Shown in pieces: positions 44,601 through 50,600 of a stretch of DNA of 64,000 nt. The stretch lies in contig OY782760.1 in the NCBI GenBank assembly GCA_963678205.1, positions 1,530,624 to 1,594,623 of the forward strand, written 5' to 3'. The number at the start of each line of letters is the position of its first letter. Position 1 is the first letter of the stretch. This DNA is from Planctomycetota bacterium. Lineage in GTDB: Bacteria; Planctomycetota; SZUA-567. A program made the position numbers.

Positions 44601-47600
44601 AATTAATTGTGGTATTTATGGTAAATCATTATATAATATTGTATTGTTGTTCGTTTATCTTTAATTAATAGGTGTTGAAATATGGAACAGGTAAAAATTA
44701 AAAATTTTGCTGAAGGCGATATCCTTGAAGGATTTTATGCTGTAAAAGATGCGAGTCTTCAGACAACGACTACCGGTAAAAATTATATCAGGGTAACAAT
44801 TTCTGACAGTTCTGGGTTGATTAGCGGAAATATGTGGGATGCGTCAAAGGATGTATTCTCAACTTTTAGTTCTGGTTCGATAATTAAGATCAGAGCCGCA
44901 GTTGAGAGTTATCGTGGAAAACTTCAGGTAAAGATAGACAAATTGCGTCTAGCGGATTCTTCAGAGGTTGATTATTCTCAGTTTATACCTCAGACAAAAT
45001 TTAATATTGATTCCTTATGGGATGAGTTAAAAGGATTCATTGATACTATCGCCGATACTGAGTATAAACAAATAGTTGAACATATCTTTTCTAGTAATGA
45101 AGTTTGTGATAAGTTTAAAATGTCGCCGGCGGCAAAAAGTAATCATCATGCTTATATTGGAGGGCTTCTGGAGCATACAGTCTCTCTTCTGAGGTATGCG
45201 GTTGCTTTTGCTACAGCGTCACCGGTTGAGCTAGATCTTGATTTACTGATAGCTGGTACCGTATTGCATGATATAGGGAAGATATACGAGTTAGCGGTTA
45301 ACGTTATTATTGATTATACTGATAGGGGGAAACTATTAGGGCATCTTATTATTGGTTCTATAATGGTAGAAGATGTGGCAAGAGAACTTGGAGGTTTTCC
45401 TGATGAGAAGAAAATTCTTCTACAGCATATGATATTGAGTCATCATGGGAAGTATGAGTATGGTTCTCCTGTTTTGCCTGCCATTCCAGAAGCATTTGCC
45501 TTGCACCATATTGATAATCTTGATGCGAAAACCGTTGCTGCGTGTAGAATTATTAATGAGGATGAATCAGAGAGCTCATGGACAGAGAGATCGTGGATGC
45601 TTGATACTACTCTCTATAAAAAAGGGCAGGGTAGTTTTGTAAATAAAAGCAATCAAGATGCTGGCTGTGATGAGAATGAGGATGAACTGGAAGCTTGTAC
45701 CTCTAAAGTAATTATTGAGGAGCAGGTGAATGATTCTAAGCCGGAGTCTGGAAGGTTGTTCTAAGTTTGGCTATCTATACTAAAAAGTGTTTGCTTGTTT
45801 CGCAAACACTTTTTAGTATAGATAGCGGTAAATATTATTTACTCCAAGAAGCAGCCTGTTGGGCGAAATAATCTCCTTGAGATTTTATTTGCGCCAAGTT
45901 TTTTTCCATATTTGCATAGGTGTTTATTAGATTTAGTTCCTTTTCTTCCATGCGTTCGTTTAGGTCGTCTATTTGAGAGCTAATATCTTCTGCCTGATTA
46001 TCAAGTGTATTTTTAATCGAAGCAAACCAACCATTTATACCATCAGTAAGGCTGTCTGTTGCATTAGACTGTTTTGCTGACAAACCTTGAGATTCCTTTG
46101 CTTCAATTTCAGTAAGTCTGAATTTATTATCATCAGAATTGCTTGTATAACCAGTGATACGAACAGCTTTAACAGATGTTGGGCTTTGGAATCCAATAGT
46201 ATTTATTGCTTGTTTGTTATTATTTACATTACGTAATTCAACCCATTTGTCTGTGCTGGCATCAAGATATTCAACCAAAAATTTATTCAATGAATAATCA
46301 GCTGCCGGCATGTCTTTTGTGTTAACATGGTAGATATTTAAAGCTTCTAGGGTACGCGCACGGTCAAAGTTTACTGTGTATTGGTAACCGGAATCTTTGT
46401 TCATAGGACGTGATGATTCAAAGCCGTTACCAGAACCAAAGTCATCTTGATTCTTATTCCCATTTATAGCATTCTTAGAGTCTGTTAGTCCTTTATCTGT
46501 TGTGCTAACAGTAGCACCGATATCACCTCTTGCAACATCAACAGATTTACACATCAAATCTTTTAACGCGTCGTACTTATTATTGACCATATCGTTTAAA
46601 ACTGAGGAATCAACTTCGAGCTTACCGTCATCACCGAATTTGACTCCAATGTCGTACCACATGGTCATACCACCGTCATCATTTTCAGCAATAGTGAAGA
46701 AAGTATCAGATAAAGAATTTACCAGACCGCGTATATTACTGTCTGCGAAGAATAGACCACCTTCTCCTTTTTCTGAATCCCAGTCGTCAAATTCATCAAT
46801 TAGGTCTAATATGCCGTTGTATGCTTCCACTAGATCTTTAATGGCAGTTGATACCTGCTCCTTTTCCTGAGAGACAGAAACAGTTACCCATTCATTATTT
46901 GTCTTTTTTAGGTCTAGCTCTAAGCCTAAAACAGCAGAGTTGTTTTCGTTGGTTGGTGAGGTCAACATAATAGGACTTGCACCACTGTTGCCCTGACCAT
47001 AAAGAAGCACCGCATCCTGGCCATCTGAGGTCTTGGTAAAGTTGAATAAGTCAATATTAGAATCAAGGAGCAAGTCACTTTCCTTGCCAGTATTTGTACT
47101 GCTAATTGAAAGACGGTATGGTGCGAAGTCTGAACCATCGTTGATAATAGAGCACTGTACATCAACACCGCATTTTGCAACTTTATCCATTACATCTCTT
47201 AGATCGTCATCTGTATCAATGGTAATTGTACGCTCAAAGCTACCATCTACTTCACTATCACCACTTCCAAGAATCCCAAGTTTTTCTGCTGTGGAACCTC
47301 CATTTACTTCACCAATAGTGAGTTTGCCTTCTCCATTTGCTGTGTCAATAATAACAATACCGTCACCACTGGAGTTTATACCAGCTGTAACACCAAGAGC
47401 ATTATTGTTGATTTGCTCAATAACATCACCGATAGTTTCTGCTGAATTGAATTTAACCTCAGACATTTTGCCGGCTGTATTGGTTATTCTGATTGAACCT
47501 GCATAGAATGCTTTGTCTCCTGTTAGGCTTTCAAGAGTTGTTGAGCGTGAGATCCACTGTGTATCAAGATCTCCTGCATTTACAGATTGACCAGAGCTAA

Positions 47601-50600
47601 CAACTTTATCGGTTAATCCTAGATCTGTAGCTGTTCTTGAACCAGTACTCAAGTTTTTGAATGTAACATCAGCACTGCCATTATTGATTACTTCAATTCC
47701 ATTTTGAGCTTTATTTAGAGTGAATGTAACATCCTGACCCTGTGAAGCCATTTGTGAATTTAGGGTGTTGAGGAGGTCATTCATGCTGTCATCACAACCT
47801 ATTGATGATAAATCTAATGTATAATCTGTTCCTCCAATTGTAGCGACAAGGCCATCAAGTGTATTATACTTGGTACCATCTGGCATAATTCCTTTCATTC
47901 CTGAACAGCCATTTATGCCGTCAAAAATAAACTGAGTACCTTTTAGGCCTGTCTGAGTTCCTGTTGCAGTATTGTTTCCTGCTCCAAAACCAATCTTTTC
48001 AGCAATTGCTCCAGTAATAGTAAGATCACTGACAGGGGTCACTACTTGATCAGCAGGTCGTGGTAATGTACCATTGATACCACCCATTCCTGAGCCGGCA
48101 ATTCCAAATAATTCTGCAGAGTGAGCTACGCTACCTATTTCACCGATTTGTACTGCGTAACTTCCTCCTCCTGTGTCCTCTATATTTATACCAGTTCCGG
48201 AAGAATTTATACTTGCAGTAAGAGTAATTCCGTCATCAGTACATTTTTGATTAAAGATGTCTATAACATCCCCAAGAGTCGTTGCTCCCTGAAAATCAAA
48301 GGAAGTTTCATTATTATTTGAATCGCTTACACCAATTTTCCAAGTTTCGTCAAATTTATCGCCATTATATAGATCTTCAATCTTTGTTGATCTATCGACC
48401 CATGAAAATAGTTCACTTACATCTGCTAAATTAAAGCTGTTTGTTGATGGCTCCATGTAAAGTTTTACTTGGCAGGTATCATTTGGGTTATTTACAGCTT
48501 CAAGTAAGTCACCTACGGTGCTTTCGTCAGTTGCAGTATATGATACAGATCTACCGAGTTTATCAGTAACTGTTATTGTGTCACCTGAATTAATGTTTGC
48601 ATATTCTTTTAGGCTAGTGTCATTACTGAAAGATTTCTGTCCCATTAATCTGCCGATTTGAACACTATTCAAGTCACCAACTAATTTATAGCCAGTAAAA
48701 GAAGTGACTTCATTGGTATCAGTATCAATACCTAAGTCTAATGCTGTTGTATTTAGACCTGATGAACCAGGGTCACTGCGAACTTCAAATTTACCAGCAT
48801 CTGTGGATTCCATTTTTATTCCGTTACCGTCAAGTGATACGTTGAGGTTTGAAATTTTGTGCCCAGAATCACTTTCGGCATTTTTAAGTGCATAAATTAC
48901 ATCACCGACAGTTTGAGCGTTACTAAGGTCAGCAATATATTCTCTTCCATCTTTTTTGATCAAAATATTGCCACATTCTCCATCATTTACGCCTAGACCA
49001 TCATTGAGCATTTTGAGAGAGGTCTTCTCACTGATAGTATTAATATTTGTACCAGTGTAGGTCTTATTTGCAGAATCATATGTGAGGTTTGTTAAACCTA
49101 GATCTGTTGCAGTTGTGCCTGAGCCGACATTTTCAATTGTAACTGTCTGGCCACCATTGAGTTTGTCACGTATTTTTAATTCATTTCCATCTACATACGC
49201 TTCGATACCTACTCCATTAGTGTCATTAATCTTTGTTGTAATGTCTGAAATGGTTTCGCAGGTAGATAGATCTATTTCTTTGACATTGCCGTCAGAGTTG
49301 CTTACTCGAATTGAACCGTGATAAATTCCTAAACCTCCATTGAGGTTCTTAACTTCTGTCTGCCTGATACATCTTCCTTGAGAGTTCTCAAGGGTAATAG
49401 TACCGTTAATAGGTTTATCTACTGTTGGAGCTGCAAGATTCCAGCCATATAGGTCGTCTCCTTGATACACTCCAGTCAAATCAGTATTTGGCAAGGCGGT
49501 AAGGGTTGTGAGAGCCAGATCTGTTGCACATGTACTTGCAGGGTGTCCGGTTGATCCATCATAGTCTGAGAAGACTAAAGCTCCATCAGCTGGGTTATCA
49601 CAAGTAATTGATAAACCCATTGGCATGTGAAACCATGTTGCGTCATCCTTGTTGCCTTCATTATAAATATTAACACTTAGGTCAATGCCTGCTTTTGATG
49701 CTTGCCCAGATAATTCAACAGCTATATCTTGCATGGTTTTGCAGTTTGTTAGGTCTATATTTATTGTATTTGAACCTTGAGTGAGTGTTACCCATCCCAT
49801 ATCAACACCATTACCATTATCAAAATCGGCAATTTGTGTAGTGAGGTCGTACTCAGCTGAAGCCTTGGTTGTGCCTATACCCATTGGAATTACTGCGCTA
49901 TCCATGTCTGAAAAGCCACCTGACATGAATTTAGCATTAGAGGCAAGGCGAGAAACTTTAAATTGATGGGAACCATTGACCGCAGAATCAGTTGCGGTTA
50001 CTTTAAGAGAATCTTCATCGCTTGAGGTAACACTTTTACTTTTCCAAAGACGTGATTCAGCAAGAGCTGACGCCTTTGTTGCAAAATCATTCAATAGCTT
50101 ATTTACACTTTGATATGCTTCTAATTGAAGATCTAGTTCGGCTTTTTTGTTTTCAAGTCTTTTAACAGAAATCTTTTCAATATCCATAAGTTGCTGAATA
50201 ATTGAATTGGTATCCATACCTGATACAAGACCGCCAATGGTTTGAGTAGGTAGTGCCATCTTTTTGCTCCCGTAAAATGCTGCACTTTTACTTGTGCAGC
50301 TTTAAAATTCATTCTGTTAGTTGTTACTAATAAACAAATTACAGATTTTCTAGCTTTCCTCGTAATTGTGCTAAGGATTAAGCTGTTGCCCCTGAGTTAC
50401 TTACATTGTTTCAAGATCGTCCCCAAACGACTTATTATAGTTATCGGAAGTATTCAGAATGTCTTGAGCTTTTTTTTATGATTTTTGTAAAAATGGGTTA
50501 CTCTTTGTGTCAATACAATTGAAAAGCACCTGACTTACCAATCAGGTGCTTTTTAGCAATAATTATATAGAAATTTTTGATGTTACTTTTCGGTTGGTGA

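What the first reader, a model, noticed from the sequence alone, without database searches (positions are those of the whole stretch)
47260..49797. About seven tandem, diverged copies of a ~110-130-aa FliD head-type module
Seen (aa ~155-1000): a recurring module of four parts.
- T.L..L(N/T).G
- G.I.(I/V).....G
- ..(I/F)DLS...T(I/V)(G/S)D(V/I)I..IN
- G(I/V).A.(I/V)N..G.G(I).I.D, then G..TA.DLG(L/I)

Examples: 'VKEIDLSTCETISDITTKINDTNGVGIEAYV...GSGTTATDLGLT'; 'EYIADLSNAQTVGDVIYALKN...GLNTTALDLGID'; 'SEVKFNSAETIGDVIEQINNNALGVTAGINSSGDGIVIID...GGSTAEKLGILG'. The last copy, 'TITIDTDDDLRDVMDKVAKCGVDVQCSIINDGS..YRLSISS', is the canonical FliD head motif (compare the generic ..tL.dl..aIN....GV.As..ndG). 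The copies are diverged at the DNA level, so this is an old internal amplification rather than a recent repeat.
Basis: partly seen in the sequence, partly recalled or inferred. Interest (0 to 1): 0.7.

Follow-up and report, generated by a model that had tools for sequence, protein, structure and literature searches.

The report
Giant flagellar cap with repeated domains
The finding lies in a 1,474-residue flagellar filament-cap protein (FliD) from a Planctomycetota bacterium, whose outer "head" carries seven old, diverged copies of a roughly 105-residue domain; this is an extreme form of a known way of enlarging cap proteins, not a new kind of system.

Summary
The ORF at 45835..50259 (-) encodes a 1,474-aa FliD: FliD_N at aa 13-108 and FliD_C at aa 1081-1459. 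Seven copies of a ~105-aa module lie at aa 139-265, 299-403, 411-523, 547-618 (+745-787), 623-734, 788-895 and 905-1010.

- **Statistics.** A profile built from three copies finds the other four. No shuffle out of 500 matches the real scores.
- **Age.** The copies share 11-38% protein identity and 36-52% DNA identity. Five copies (R2, R3, R4, R6, R7) match the same-position copy in other species far better than any copy in the same protein, so the amplification is old.
- **Nesting.** One copy, R5, sits inside R4.
- **Fold.** AlphaFold gives a confident ββ-α-βββ fold (pLDDT 91.5).
- **Known relatives.** The module core is Pfam's Flagellin_IN motif. It is homologous to the protein's own canonical head segment (hhalign 94%, E 1e-7). 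The nearest solved structures are flagellin outer domains and FliD heads, with weak scores (TM about 0.5).
- **Distribution.** More than 2,000 protein clusters carry the module, typically 5-9 copies in 900-1,300-aa proteins whose first copy starts near residue 140, as in the FliD proteins checked.

This is a new variant of a known kind; H. pylori FliD has extra head domains D4 and D5. The function of the extra domains is inferred only.

The parts
45835..50259 (-). fliD ORF, 1,474 aa (stop codon included): flagellar filament cap protein (HAP2)
   Evidence: ORF list. Pfam FliD_N 87.8 bits and FliD_C 100 bits, both above their cutoffs. A 92%-identical homologue of the same length exists.
49936..50223 (-). 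FliD_N (aa 13-108): N-terminal D0/D1 leg helices
   Evidence: Pfam PF02465, E 7.9e-25.
49465..49845 (-). Module R1 (aa 139-265). The most diverged copy, with an extra helix and insert. Present only in the P0001-P0012 clade.
   Evidence: HMM hits. AF2 secondary structure h-ββ-α-β-(α)-ββ-h. Absent in P0013/P0015.
49051..49365 (-). Module R2 (aa 299-403), full copy
   Evidence: It is 51-57% identical to the positional orthologue in P0006, P0008, P0010 and P0013.
48691..49029 (-). Module R3 (aa 411-523), full copy with an insert after the helix
   Evidence: Found independently at iE 8e-8. Also.
48406..48621 (-). Module R4, N-terminal part (aa 547-618; profile positions 7-71: ββ-α-ββ)
48058..48393 (-). 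Module R5 (aa 623-734). A full copy nested inside R4. Found only in the P0001-P0007 clade. Its closest paralogue is R7 (38% identity).
   Evidence: Global alignments to P0008 and P0013 show WIN 616-744 as an insertion. Paralogue relationship.
47899..48027 (-). Probable C-terminal part of R4 (aa 745-787; strand 746-749 and helix 751-755, 'LTITGAIAEKIGFGAG') plus linker
   Evidence: It aligns to the end of the uninterrupted R4 of P0008. AF2 pLDDT is 81-87. Packing against R4 is inferred, because no coordinates were available.
47575..47898 (-). Module R6 (aa 788-895). The profile matches from position 21; AF2 shows the full ββ-α-βββ-h pattern.
47230..47547 (-). Module R7 (aa 905-1010). The best-conserved full copy and the one modelled on its own.
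   Evidence: AF2 pLDDT 91.5, pTM 0.84. Pfam Flagellin_IN at aa 19-65 of the module, E 3.9e-4.
47020..47229 (-). Canonical FliD head segment (aa 1011-1080, 'TITIDTDDDLRDVMDKVAKCGVDVQCSIINDGS..YRLSISS'). A partial eighth relative of the module (β-α-βββ).
   Evidence: Conserved in 54 homologues. hhalign to the module profile: 94%, E 1.2e-7. Not significant in the single-sequence test. AF2 confidence is low here.
45883..47019 (-). FliD_C (aa 1081-1459): rest of D2, then D1/D0 leg helices. Interrupted by the inserted domain listed next.
   Evidence: Pfam PF07195, E 1.8e-28, profile positions 2-235 spread over 379 residues.
46135..46515 (-). F5/8 type C (discoidin-like) domain inserted in FliD_C (aa 1249-1375)
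   Evidence: Pfam PF00754 at 25.4 bits, below the 28.2-bit cutoff, in this protein. In relative P0060 it scores 52.7 bits, above the cutoff, at the same site.
50441..50467 (-). Sigma-28 (FliA)-type promoter-like element TCAA-N15-TCCGATAA, about 180 nt upstream of the start codon
   Evidence: Read from the sequence. CCGATAA lies at the same distance upstream in all five related loci. The alignment is invariant across both boxes. The consensus TAAA-N15-GCCGATAA is from my own knowledge. Function is inferred.

Best explanation
**Identity.** This is the filament-capping protein FliD (HAP2) of a low-GC Planctomycetota bacterium.

**Conserved parts (inferred role).** The termini (FliD_N, FliD_C) should form the D0/D1 'legs'. 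In studied flagella these legs pentamerise, plug the filament tip and guide flagellin insertion.

**The expansion (shown).** In ordinary FliD a single ~125-aa D3/'Head 2' domain is inserted into D2. Here that position holds about 870 residues, aa 139-1010: seven copies of a ~105-aa domain that folds on its own (ββ-α-βββ plus a short helix). The domain's core is the Flagellin_IN motif, and the run ends in the canonical head segment.

**How it arose (inferred from comparison).**
- The copies arose by ancient serial duplication of the head domain.
- About five copies are common to the wider family, and the exact ancestral set was not resolved.
- This lineage added R1 at the N-terminal end and R5 as a nested insertion into R4.

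**Likely function (inferred, not shown).** The modules form five long, flexible, surface-exposed arms or a crown. These radiate from the D2-D3 plate at the flagellar tip, away from the flagellin-folding cavity. Together with the discoidin-like domain inserted in the leg region, they most likely mediate contact with the environment (glycan or surface binding). They probably do not take part in flagellin polymerisation.
For: **Identity**
- FliD_N and FliD_C score above Pfam cutoffs, and NCBIfam FliD equivalog models match in part.
- The closest genomes are named 'MAG: Planctomycetota bacterium'.
- A sigma-28-like promoter is conserved upstream.

**Repeats**

**Fold**
- The single-module model has pLDDT 91.5 and pTM 0.84.
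- The 1,026-aa head model shows the same ββ-α-βββ-h pattern seven times, with pTM only 0.39, so no fixed inter-domain arrangement is predicted.

**Relation to the FliD head and flagellar outer domains**
- hhalign 94%, E 1.2e-7.
- The module profile hits C. jejuni FliD residues 140-180 at E 0.007.
- Foldseek: V. cholerae flagellins (prob 0.89-0.98), PAO1 FliC D2/D3, and Bdellovibrio and C. jejuni FliD. H. pylori FliD 6iwy is the top hit for the whole head.
- Flagellin_IN matches.

**Topology precedent**
- P. aeruginosa Head 2 (residues 104-230) is an insertion in Head 1 and resembles the FliC outer domain (PMC5072837).

**Age and selection**
- Positional orthologues are 38-57% identical and score 41-112 bits. 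Paralogues inside the protein score 22-54 bits.
- Modules are 60-80% identical to the 69-73%-identical orthologues P0002 and P0005, similar to the core.

**Nested R5**
- Precedent: G. thiophilus flagellin D5 is a duplication of D4 inserted in one of its loops (PMC11532411).

**Extra domains lie away from the cavity**
- H. pylori D4/D5 are head domains with D2/D3-like folds (PMC8306008).

**Adhesion precedents**
- FliD has reported adhesive roles in P. aeruginosa (mucin) and C. jejuni (heparin) (PMC8306008, PMC7316729).
Against: - No experiment or expression data exist for this protein, and every functional step is inferred.
- Structural matches of the module to solved FliD or flagellin domains are weak (TMq 0.41-0.51, all Foldseek E>1e-3).
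- The canonical head segment was modelled with pLDDT<50. How the modules attach to D2 is therefore not established.
- In this protein the discoidin match is below Pfam's cutoff.
- There is no fliS or other flagellar gene next to fliD in the window, so the flagellar context rests on the protein and the promoter-like element.
- Low pTM may reflect the shallow 13-sequence alignment and not real flexibility.
Confidence: 0.75

Rival explanations
1. **Size-matching or template role.** The enlarged head exists because the filament and junction proteins of these bacteria also carry bulky outer domains of the same type. The cap needs a wider plate, or like-structured templates, to cover and chaperone them. 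On this view the modules are part of the assembly machinery and not an adhesin.
For: - The same module occurs four times in a FlgL (HAP3) homologue: P0055 scores 187 bits on TIGR02550, above its cutoff.
- Giant flagellins are reported in Planctomycetes (PMC6248924).
- Postel et al. proposed that the FliD head presents a like-structured template for FliC folding (PMC5072837).
- The best structural neighbours of the module are flagellin outer domains.
Against: - The flagellin and FlgL of this organism are not in the window and could not be examined.
- In C. jejuni the extra FliD domain lies away from the cavity (PMC12221982).
- Copy number varies from 4 to 9 among related FliDs, which argues against a tight structural requirement.
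Confidence: 0.3
2. **Captured domain.** The module is not FliD-derived. It would be a β-grasp (ubiquitin/UBX-like) domain taken from elsewhere and amplified, and the resemblance to the FliD head would be superficial.
For: - The module profile matches the OTU1 UBX-like domain (E 8e-4), polyubiquitin chains and staphylococcal superantigen-like β-grasp domains over the ββα part.
- Pfam shows sub-threshold hits to OTU1_UBXL, Stap_Strp_tox_C, Rad60-SLD and RA_2 in relatives.
Against: - The per-repeat ubiquitin scores are about 2.7 bits. The low E-values come from summing nine ubiquitin repeats.
- No ubiquitin-like structure is among the top 50 Foldseek hits.
- Flagellin_IN (36 of 103 modules), C. 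jejuni FliD and the protein's own head segment give stronger, specific matches.
Confidence: 0.08
3. **Chance or decay.** The periodicity would be a compositional or chance effect in a G/T/N/D-rich linker region, or the copies would be decaying relics without function.
For: - The region is rich in G, T, N, D and S.
- Copies 1, 4 and 6 match the profile only in part.
Against: - No shuffle out of 500 with the same composition reaches the observed scores.
- Confident, repeated folds are predicted.
- Each copy is conserved with its positional orthologue across species at levels similar to the FliD core.
- The ORF is intact.
Confidence: 0.02

Closest known systems
Helicobacter pylori FliD (PDB 6IWY) with extra head domains D4 and D5; Campylobacter jejuni FliD with D4
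   Same: - These are filament cap proteins enlarged by additional head-region domains with D2/D3-like folds (PMC8306008).
- 6iwy is the top Foldseek hit for the modelled head region (E 6e-4).
- C. jejuni D4 protrudes from the D1 bundle (PMC7316729). The discoidin-like insertion here splits the FliD_C leg region; whether it is the same site was not checked.
   Different: - Those proteins have one or two extra domains and are 640-685 aa. This one has seven extra copies, one of them nested, and is 1,474 aa.
- The copies here share a recognisable sequence motif with each other.
- There is no detectable sequence similarity to H. pylori D4/D5 beyond the fold-level hit.
Pfam PF07196 Flagellin_IN ('Flagellin hook IN motif')
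   Same: - The module core (strand-strand-helix-strand with the conserved I-N pair) is this motif.
- The motif is described as usually repeated, one to five times, in hook-associated proteins and flagellins (PMC9751261).
   Different: - Pfam models only 55 residues. The unit here is a complete ~105-aa domain with further conserved parts (N-terminal T.L..LNGG.G and C-terminal G.TA.DLGL).
- In this protein the matches are below Pfam's cutoff, and the full-length scan did not report the family at all.
- Seven copies exceed the stated range.
Canonical FliD D3 / 'Head 2' domain (e.g. P. aeruginosa 5FHY residues 104-230)
   Same: - It is a contiguous domain inserted into D2 after the N-terminal strands, and it resembles flagellin outer domains (PMC5072837).
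- The modules occupy this position and are profile-homologous to the conserved head segment.
   Different: - It is present as a single copy in the canonical protein.
- The structural match of the module to solved FliD heads is only TM about 0.45-0.5.
Giant flagellins, and flagellin outer domains that arose by duplication (Bermanella DE regions; Geovibrio thiophilus D4/D5)
   Same: - Flagellar axial proteins enlarged by internal domain duplication. This includes a duplicate inserted into a loop of its parent domain and a domain related to FliD D2 (PMC6248924, PMC11532411).
   Different: - Those are the filament subunit, present in thousands of copies. This is the cap, present in five copies.
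- The repeat family is different.

Membership tests
FliD / HAP2 filament cap protein | N-terminal FliD_N domain (D0/D1 helices) | tested here: met
   PF02465 at aa 13-108, 87.8 bits against a cutoff of 24.8.
FliD / HAP2 filament cap protein | C-terminal FliD_C domain | tested here: met
   PF07195 at aa 1081-1459, 100 bits against a cutoff of 25.4, covering profile positions 2-235 of 236 and split by an insertion.
FliD / HAP2 filament cap protein | Head region (D2-D3) between the terminal helices, with D3 inserted in D2 | tested here: inconclusive
   The head segment is conserved in 54 homologues. Foldseek's top hit for the head model is H. pylori FliD. However, the canonical part was modelled at pLDDT<50.
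FliD / HAP2 filament cap protein | Full-length match to a curated FliD equivalog model | tested here: not met
   The best NCBIfam model, PRK07737, scores 112.8 bits against a cutoff of 444. Only the termini match, as expected for an expanded architecture.
FliD / HAP2 filament cap protein | Pentameric cap at the filament tip, required for filament growth | not testable with these tools
   This needs microscopy or genetics.
FliD / HAP2 filament cap protein | Flagellar gene context (fliS downstream, late-class promoter) | tested here: inconclusive
   There is no fliS or other flagellar gene adjacent in the window or in locus L001. A sigma-28-like TCAA-N15-TCCGATAA element is conserved upstream in 6 of 6 genomes.
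Pfam PF07196 Flagellin_IN | Score at or above the gathering cutoff (22.7 bits) | tested here: inconclusive
   In the window protein the family is not reported in the full-length scan at E<=1. Copy R7 alone scores 21.0 bits, E 3.9e-4. Orthologous copies score above the cutoff: P0006 55.5 bits, P0023 60.6 bits, P0012 23.7 bits. Of 103 modules, 36 match at E<=0.01.
Pfam PF07196 Flagellin_IN | [quoted passage not shown] | tested here: met
   N47 is at least 90% conserved in the 103-module alignment, and the consensus is 'DV...IN'. In the window protein, 'IN' is present in R2 and R7; the other copies have LN, VN, FN, LK or LS at that position.
β-grasp (ubiquitin-like) fold | Significant sequence or structure match to β-grasp domains | tested here: not met
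   Only sub-threshold or summed hits were found. No ubiquitin-like chain is in the top 50 Foldseek matches.
F5/8 type C (discoidin) domain (the insertion at aa 1249-1375) | Pfam PF00754 at or above the 28.2-bit cutoff | tested here: inconclusive
   It scores 25.4 bits in the window protein, 27.9 bits in P0002 and 52.7 bits in P0060 at the equivalent site.

The most novel reading that the evidence does not exclude
Planctomycetota and their relatives may build a distinct tip organelle on their flagella. On this reading, five arms, each a chain of eight or more D3-like domains tens of nanometres long, carry a lectin-like discoidin domain at the base. The organelle would act as a flagellar-tip adhesin or glycan sensor, for example during surface attachment of swimmer cells. 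The ~105-aa module would be a mobile building block shared by FliD, FlgL and some 7,000-aa proteins.
Probability: 0.2. Interest if true: 0.6.

Novelty: new variant of a known kind. Interest (0 to 1): 0.35.

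Why it matters
FliD caps studied so far have two to four or five head domains. The papers read here attach an unknown or only suggested role to the extra ones (adhesion in C. jejuni, virulence and antigenicity in H. pylori).

This protein belongs to a large family that I could not find described. More than 2,000 clusters at 50% identity match the module at E<=1e-10. 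In this family the head is expanded to 5-9 copies of one domain. That makes it a natural system for two questions:
- What do accessory cap domains do?
- How far can a five-subunit cap be enlarged and still be exported and assembled?

The work also shows that Pfam's 55-residue 'IN motif' is the core of a complete ~105-residue domain with a confidently predicted fold, and that this domain is shared between FliD and FlgL.

It does not change the general picture of flagellar assembly.

Tried and rejected
- **Whole-protein self-BLASTP** returned only the diagonal, because BLAST culls contained HSPs. I replaced it with segment-against-masked-rest searches.
- **The search for homologous proteins with the module alignment** returned only two short fragments. 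This looks like a word-index limitation and was uninformative. The exhaustive profile search replaced it.
- **Splicing R4a to the post-R5 segment** did not raise the HMM score (44.6 against 44.9 bits). The nested-insertion claim therefore rests on the cross-species alignment and the AF2 secondary structure, not on that test.
- **Tandem Repeats Finder** found nothing in the gene.
- **An Rfam scan of the 5' leader** found nothing above gathering scores. The hits there overlap the upstream gene's terminator.
- **The β-grasp/ubiquitin reading** was considered and rejected as the primary classification.
- **The literature search 'FliD' + 'Planctomycetes'** found nothing relevant.
- **Foldseek with the 1,026-aa model** mostly gave meaningless large β-rich proteins, apart from the FliD and flagellin hits.

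Full report
**What is at the coordinates.** The finding (47260-49797) lies inside one ORF, 45835..50259 on the minus strand, encoding 1,474 aa. It corresponds to aa 155-1000.
- Pfam places FliD_N at aa 13-108 (87.8 bits) and FliD_C at aa 1081-1459 (100 bits). FliD_C is stretched over 379 residues by an inserted F5/8 type C-like domain at aa 1249-1375 (25.4 bits, just under the cutoff).
- NCBIfam FliD equivalog models match only the termini.
- The closest relatives are full-length proteins of 1,460-1,474 aa, 49-92% identical.
- Four of them map to genomes titled 'MAG: Planctomycetota bacterium', 71-73% identical, and gene order is conserved in the one related locus whose called genes were listed, L001.

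The protein is therefore the filament cap FliD (HAP2) of a low-GC (about 35-40%) Planctomycetota bacterium. About 900 residues sit between its conserved ends.

**Is the repeat real?** Yes.
- Comparing 120-aa segments with the rest of the protein gives significant off-diagonal matches, down to E 6e-11.
- A profile built from three copies only (299-401, 623-734, 905-1010) finds four further copies with independent E-values of 8e-8, 1e-5, 5e-4 and 2.5e-3.
- Against 500 composition-preserving shuffles of each non-seed segment, the real segments scored 9.7, 32.4 and 16.9 bits. No shuffle reached them (maxima 7.1, 9.1, 11.6). The C-terminal 1011-1474 was indistinguishable from shuffles.
- With a family profile the seven envelopes are 139-265, 299-403, 411-523, 547-618, 623-734, 788-895 and 905-1010.
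- Copies are 11-38% identical in protein and 36-52% in codon-aligned DNA. Tandem Repeats Finder sees nothing.

**Structure of the module.** An AlphaFold2 model of copy R7, using the 103-module alignment, is confident (mean pLDDT 91.5, pTM 0.84). It shows a short helix, a β-hairpin, an 11-residue helix ending in the conserved I-N, three more strands and a short helix.

A model of aa 105-1130 built with 13 sequences has mean pLDDT 71. It repeats this ββ-α-βββ-h pattern in all seven copies, including the three that match the sequence profile only in part. Its pTM is 0.39, so no fixed inter-domain geometry is predicted. The canonical head segment after R7 was modelled poorly (pLDDT<50).

**What the module is related to.**
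1. *Pfam Flagellin_IN (PF07196).* R7 alone matches at aa 19-65, E 3.9e-4. Of 103 modules, 36 match at E<=0.01. Orthologues exceed the cutoff. The full-length scan of the window protein did not report the family, which explains why it looked unannotated.
2. *The protein's own canonical head segment.* A profile of aa 1009-1104 from 54 proteins aligns to the module profile with hhalign probability 94% and E 1.2e-7. Module positions 28-81 align to head positions 1-59. The head profile also hit a repeat module in P0040 directly.
3. *Solved structures by sequence.* C. jejuni FliD residues 140-180 match at E 0.007.
4. *Solved structures by fold.*
   - For the single module: V. cholerae flagellins (prob 0.89-0.98, TMq about 0.5), P. 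aeruginosa FliC D2/D3, and Bdellovibrio and C. jejuni FliD. All have Foldseek E>1e-3.
   - For the whole head region, H. pylori FliD 6iwy is the top hit (E 6e-4).

In P. aeruginosa FliD, 'Head 2' (residues 104-230) is a contiguous insertion into 'Head 1' and resembles the flagellin outer domain (PMC5072837). The modules here occupy exactly that position. Weak matches to ubiquitin, UBX-like and superantigen β-grasp domains over the ββα part are sub-threshold. Foldseek does not back them up.

**History of the amplification.**
- Modules R2, R3, R4, R6 and R7 are each most similar to the module at the same position in P0006, P0008, P0010 and P0013 (31-57% identity, 41-112 bits). Their best paralogue within the protein scores only 22-54 bits. 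The copies therefore predate the divergence of those four relatives.
- R1 exists only in the P0001-P0012 clade.
- R5 exists only in P0001-P0007, and its nearest relative is R7.
- Global alignment to P0008 and P0013 shows that WIN 616-744, which contains R5, is an insertion. It lies between the fourth strand of R4 and a segment (745-) homologous to the end of their uninterrupted R4. AlphaFold predicts a confident strand and helix at 746-755. R5 is thus nested in R4. The same has been described for flagellin D5 within D4 in Geovibrio thiophilus (PMC11532411).
- The modules are about as conserved as the FliD core in the 69-73%-identical orthologues P0002 and P0005, 60-80% against 63-83%. This indicates purifying selection.

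**How common is it?**
- An exhaustive profile search of 1.84 billion cluster representatives found 3,131 proteins at E<=1e-3, 2,131 at E<=1e-10 and 1,118 at E<=1e-30.
- Most of these are 900-1,300 aa with 5-9 matched stretches, and many have one starting near residue 140, as in FliD.
- Among the 57 homologues examined, copy number ranges from 4 to 9.
- The module also occurs four times in a FlgL homologue (P0055; TIGR02550 187 bits).
- It occurs 16-20 times in two proteins of 6,793 and 7,141 aa of unknown type.
- A nine-module FliD (P0060) carries a clear F5/8 type C domain (52.7 bits) at the same site as the window protein.

**How it probably works.**

*Shown:* the domain composition, the repeat structure, homology to the head segment and its age.

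*Established for other species:*
- FliD forms a pentamer whose D0/D1 helices plug the filament.
- The D2-D3 domains form a star-shaped plate.
- The extra D4 of C. jejuni lies away from the flagellin-folding cavity (PMC12221982, PMC7316729).
- H. pylori D4/D5 are head domains with D2/D3-like folds (PMC8306008).
- FliD acts as an adhesin in P. aeruginosa, and C. jejuni FliD binds heparin, a feature involved in adherence (PMC8306008, PMC7316729).

*Inferred:*
- Here the conserved ends do the capping.
- The seven modules form long surface-exposed arms radiating from the plate.
- With the discoidin-like domain, they mediate contact with the surroundings.

The main rival is that the enlarged head matches bulky outer domains on the filament and junction proteins. 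The same module occurs in FlgL, and giant flagellins are reported in Planctomycetes (PMC6248924). I could not examine this organism's flagellin.

**Comparison and novelty.** The closest known cases are H. pylori and C. jejuni FliD, which have one or two extra domains, and Pfam's repeated Flagellin_IN motif, said to occur one to five times in hook-associated proteins (PMC9751261). This protein differs in four ways:
- **Scale:** seven extra copies, with nine in relatives.
- **Nesting:** one copy is inserted inside another.
- **Extra domain:** a discoidin-like domain is inserted in the leg region.
- **Unit size:** the repeat is a full ~105-aa domain, of which Pfam captures half.

I found no paper describing Planctomycetota FliD. 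I rate it a new variant of a known kind, of moderate interest.

**Regulatory context.**
- The upstream gene ends in a strong terminator at 50553-50522.
- About 180 nt upstream of the fliD start lies TCAA-N15-TCCGATAA (50467-50441). It matches the sigma-28 consensus spacing, which I know from memory.
- This element is invariant in all five related loci.
- It is followed by an invariant leader block, and by a hairpin before the ribosome-binding site that keeps pairing through different sequences.

This supports the view that the gene is a functional late flagellar gene, although no other flagellar gene is adjacent.

Noticed in passing
window 46135-46515 (-), aa 1249-1375 of FliD: An F5/8 type C (discoidin-like, possibly carbohydrate-binding) domain is inserted in the FliD_C leg region. 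In other family members (P0022, P0023, P0028, P0031, P0040) an extra copy of the repeat module lies within the C-terminal ~200 residues (about aa 820-950), in the FliD_C part of the protein. C. jejuni FliD D4 likewise protrudes from the D1 bundle.
   Followed up: partly
window 50260-50470 (-), fliD 5' region; L001-L005 equivalents: A sigma-28-like TCAA-N15-TCCGATAA element is present here and invariant in all five related loci. It is followed by an invariant block ATAAT.AG.CGTTTGGGGACG.TCT. A hairpin just upstream of the ACGGGAG ribosome-binding site differs in sequence between genomes but keeps its pairing. The two GGA-containing elements may be sites for a translational regulator such as CsrA. 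There is no Rfam match.
   Followed up: partly
P0055 and P0057 (about 995 aa): These FlgL (hook-filament junction, HAP3) homologues carry four copies of the same ~105-aa module. The module is therefore shared between two different hook-associated proteins.
   Followed up: partly
P0076 (7,141 aa) and P0115 (6,793 aa), from the exhaustive profile search: Two giant proteins contain 20 and 16 copies of the module. Their other domains and their relation to flagella are unknown, because they were too long for the Pfam tool.
   Followed up: no
P0009-P0012 (1,825-1,970 aa), roughly aa 240-810: These relatives have a further 500-650-aa insertion between modules R1 and R2. It does not match the module profile and shows its own internal repetition, for example '...TTTDGKT(V/L)TFRI...DDG(Y/F)WYD.DDN...' occurring twice in P0009.
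   Followed up: no
module profile vs PDB and Pfam (window aa 905-1010 and relatives): The ββα part of the module gives weak, sub-threshold matches to β-grasp families: ubiquitin, OTU1 UBX-like, Rad60-SLD, RA_2 and the staphylococcal toxin β-grasp. This may reflect a distant relationship or convergence of the β-hairpin-helix unit.
   Followed up: partly
window 50583-52188 (-): Three consecutive paralogous genes encode small proteins (177, 185 and 145 aa) with hydrophobic, signal-peptide-like N-termini. They lie directly upstream of fliD. The equivalent gene in locus L001 carries Pfam DUF2059. The arrangement is conserved in the related genome.
   Followed up: no
window 1-64000: Large ORFs lie mostly on the + strand up to about 45.8 kb and mostly on the - strand from 45.8 to 56.5 kb. 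GC skew is positive in most 2-kb blocks before about 46 kb and near zero or negative over 46-56 kb. fliD sits at this strand switch.
   Followed up: no
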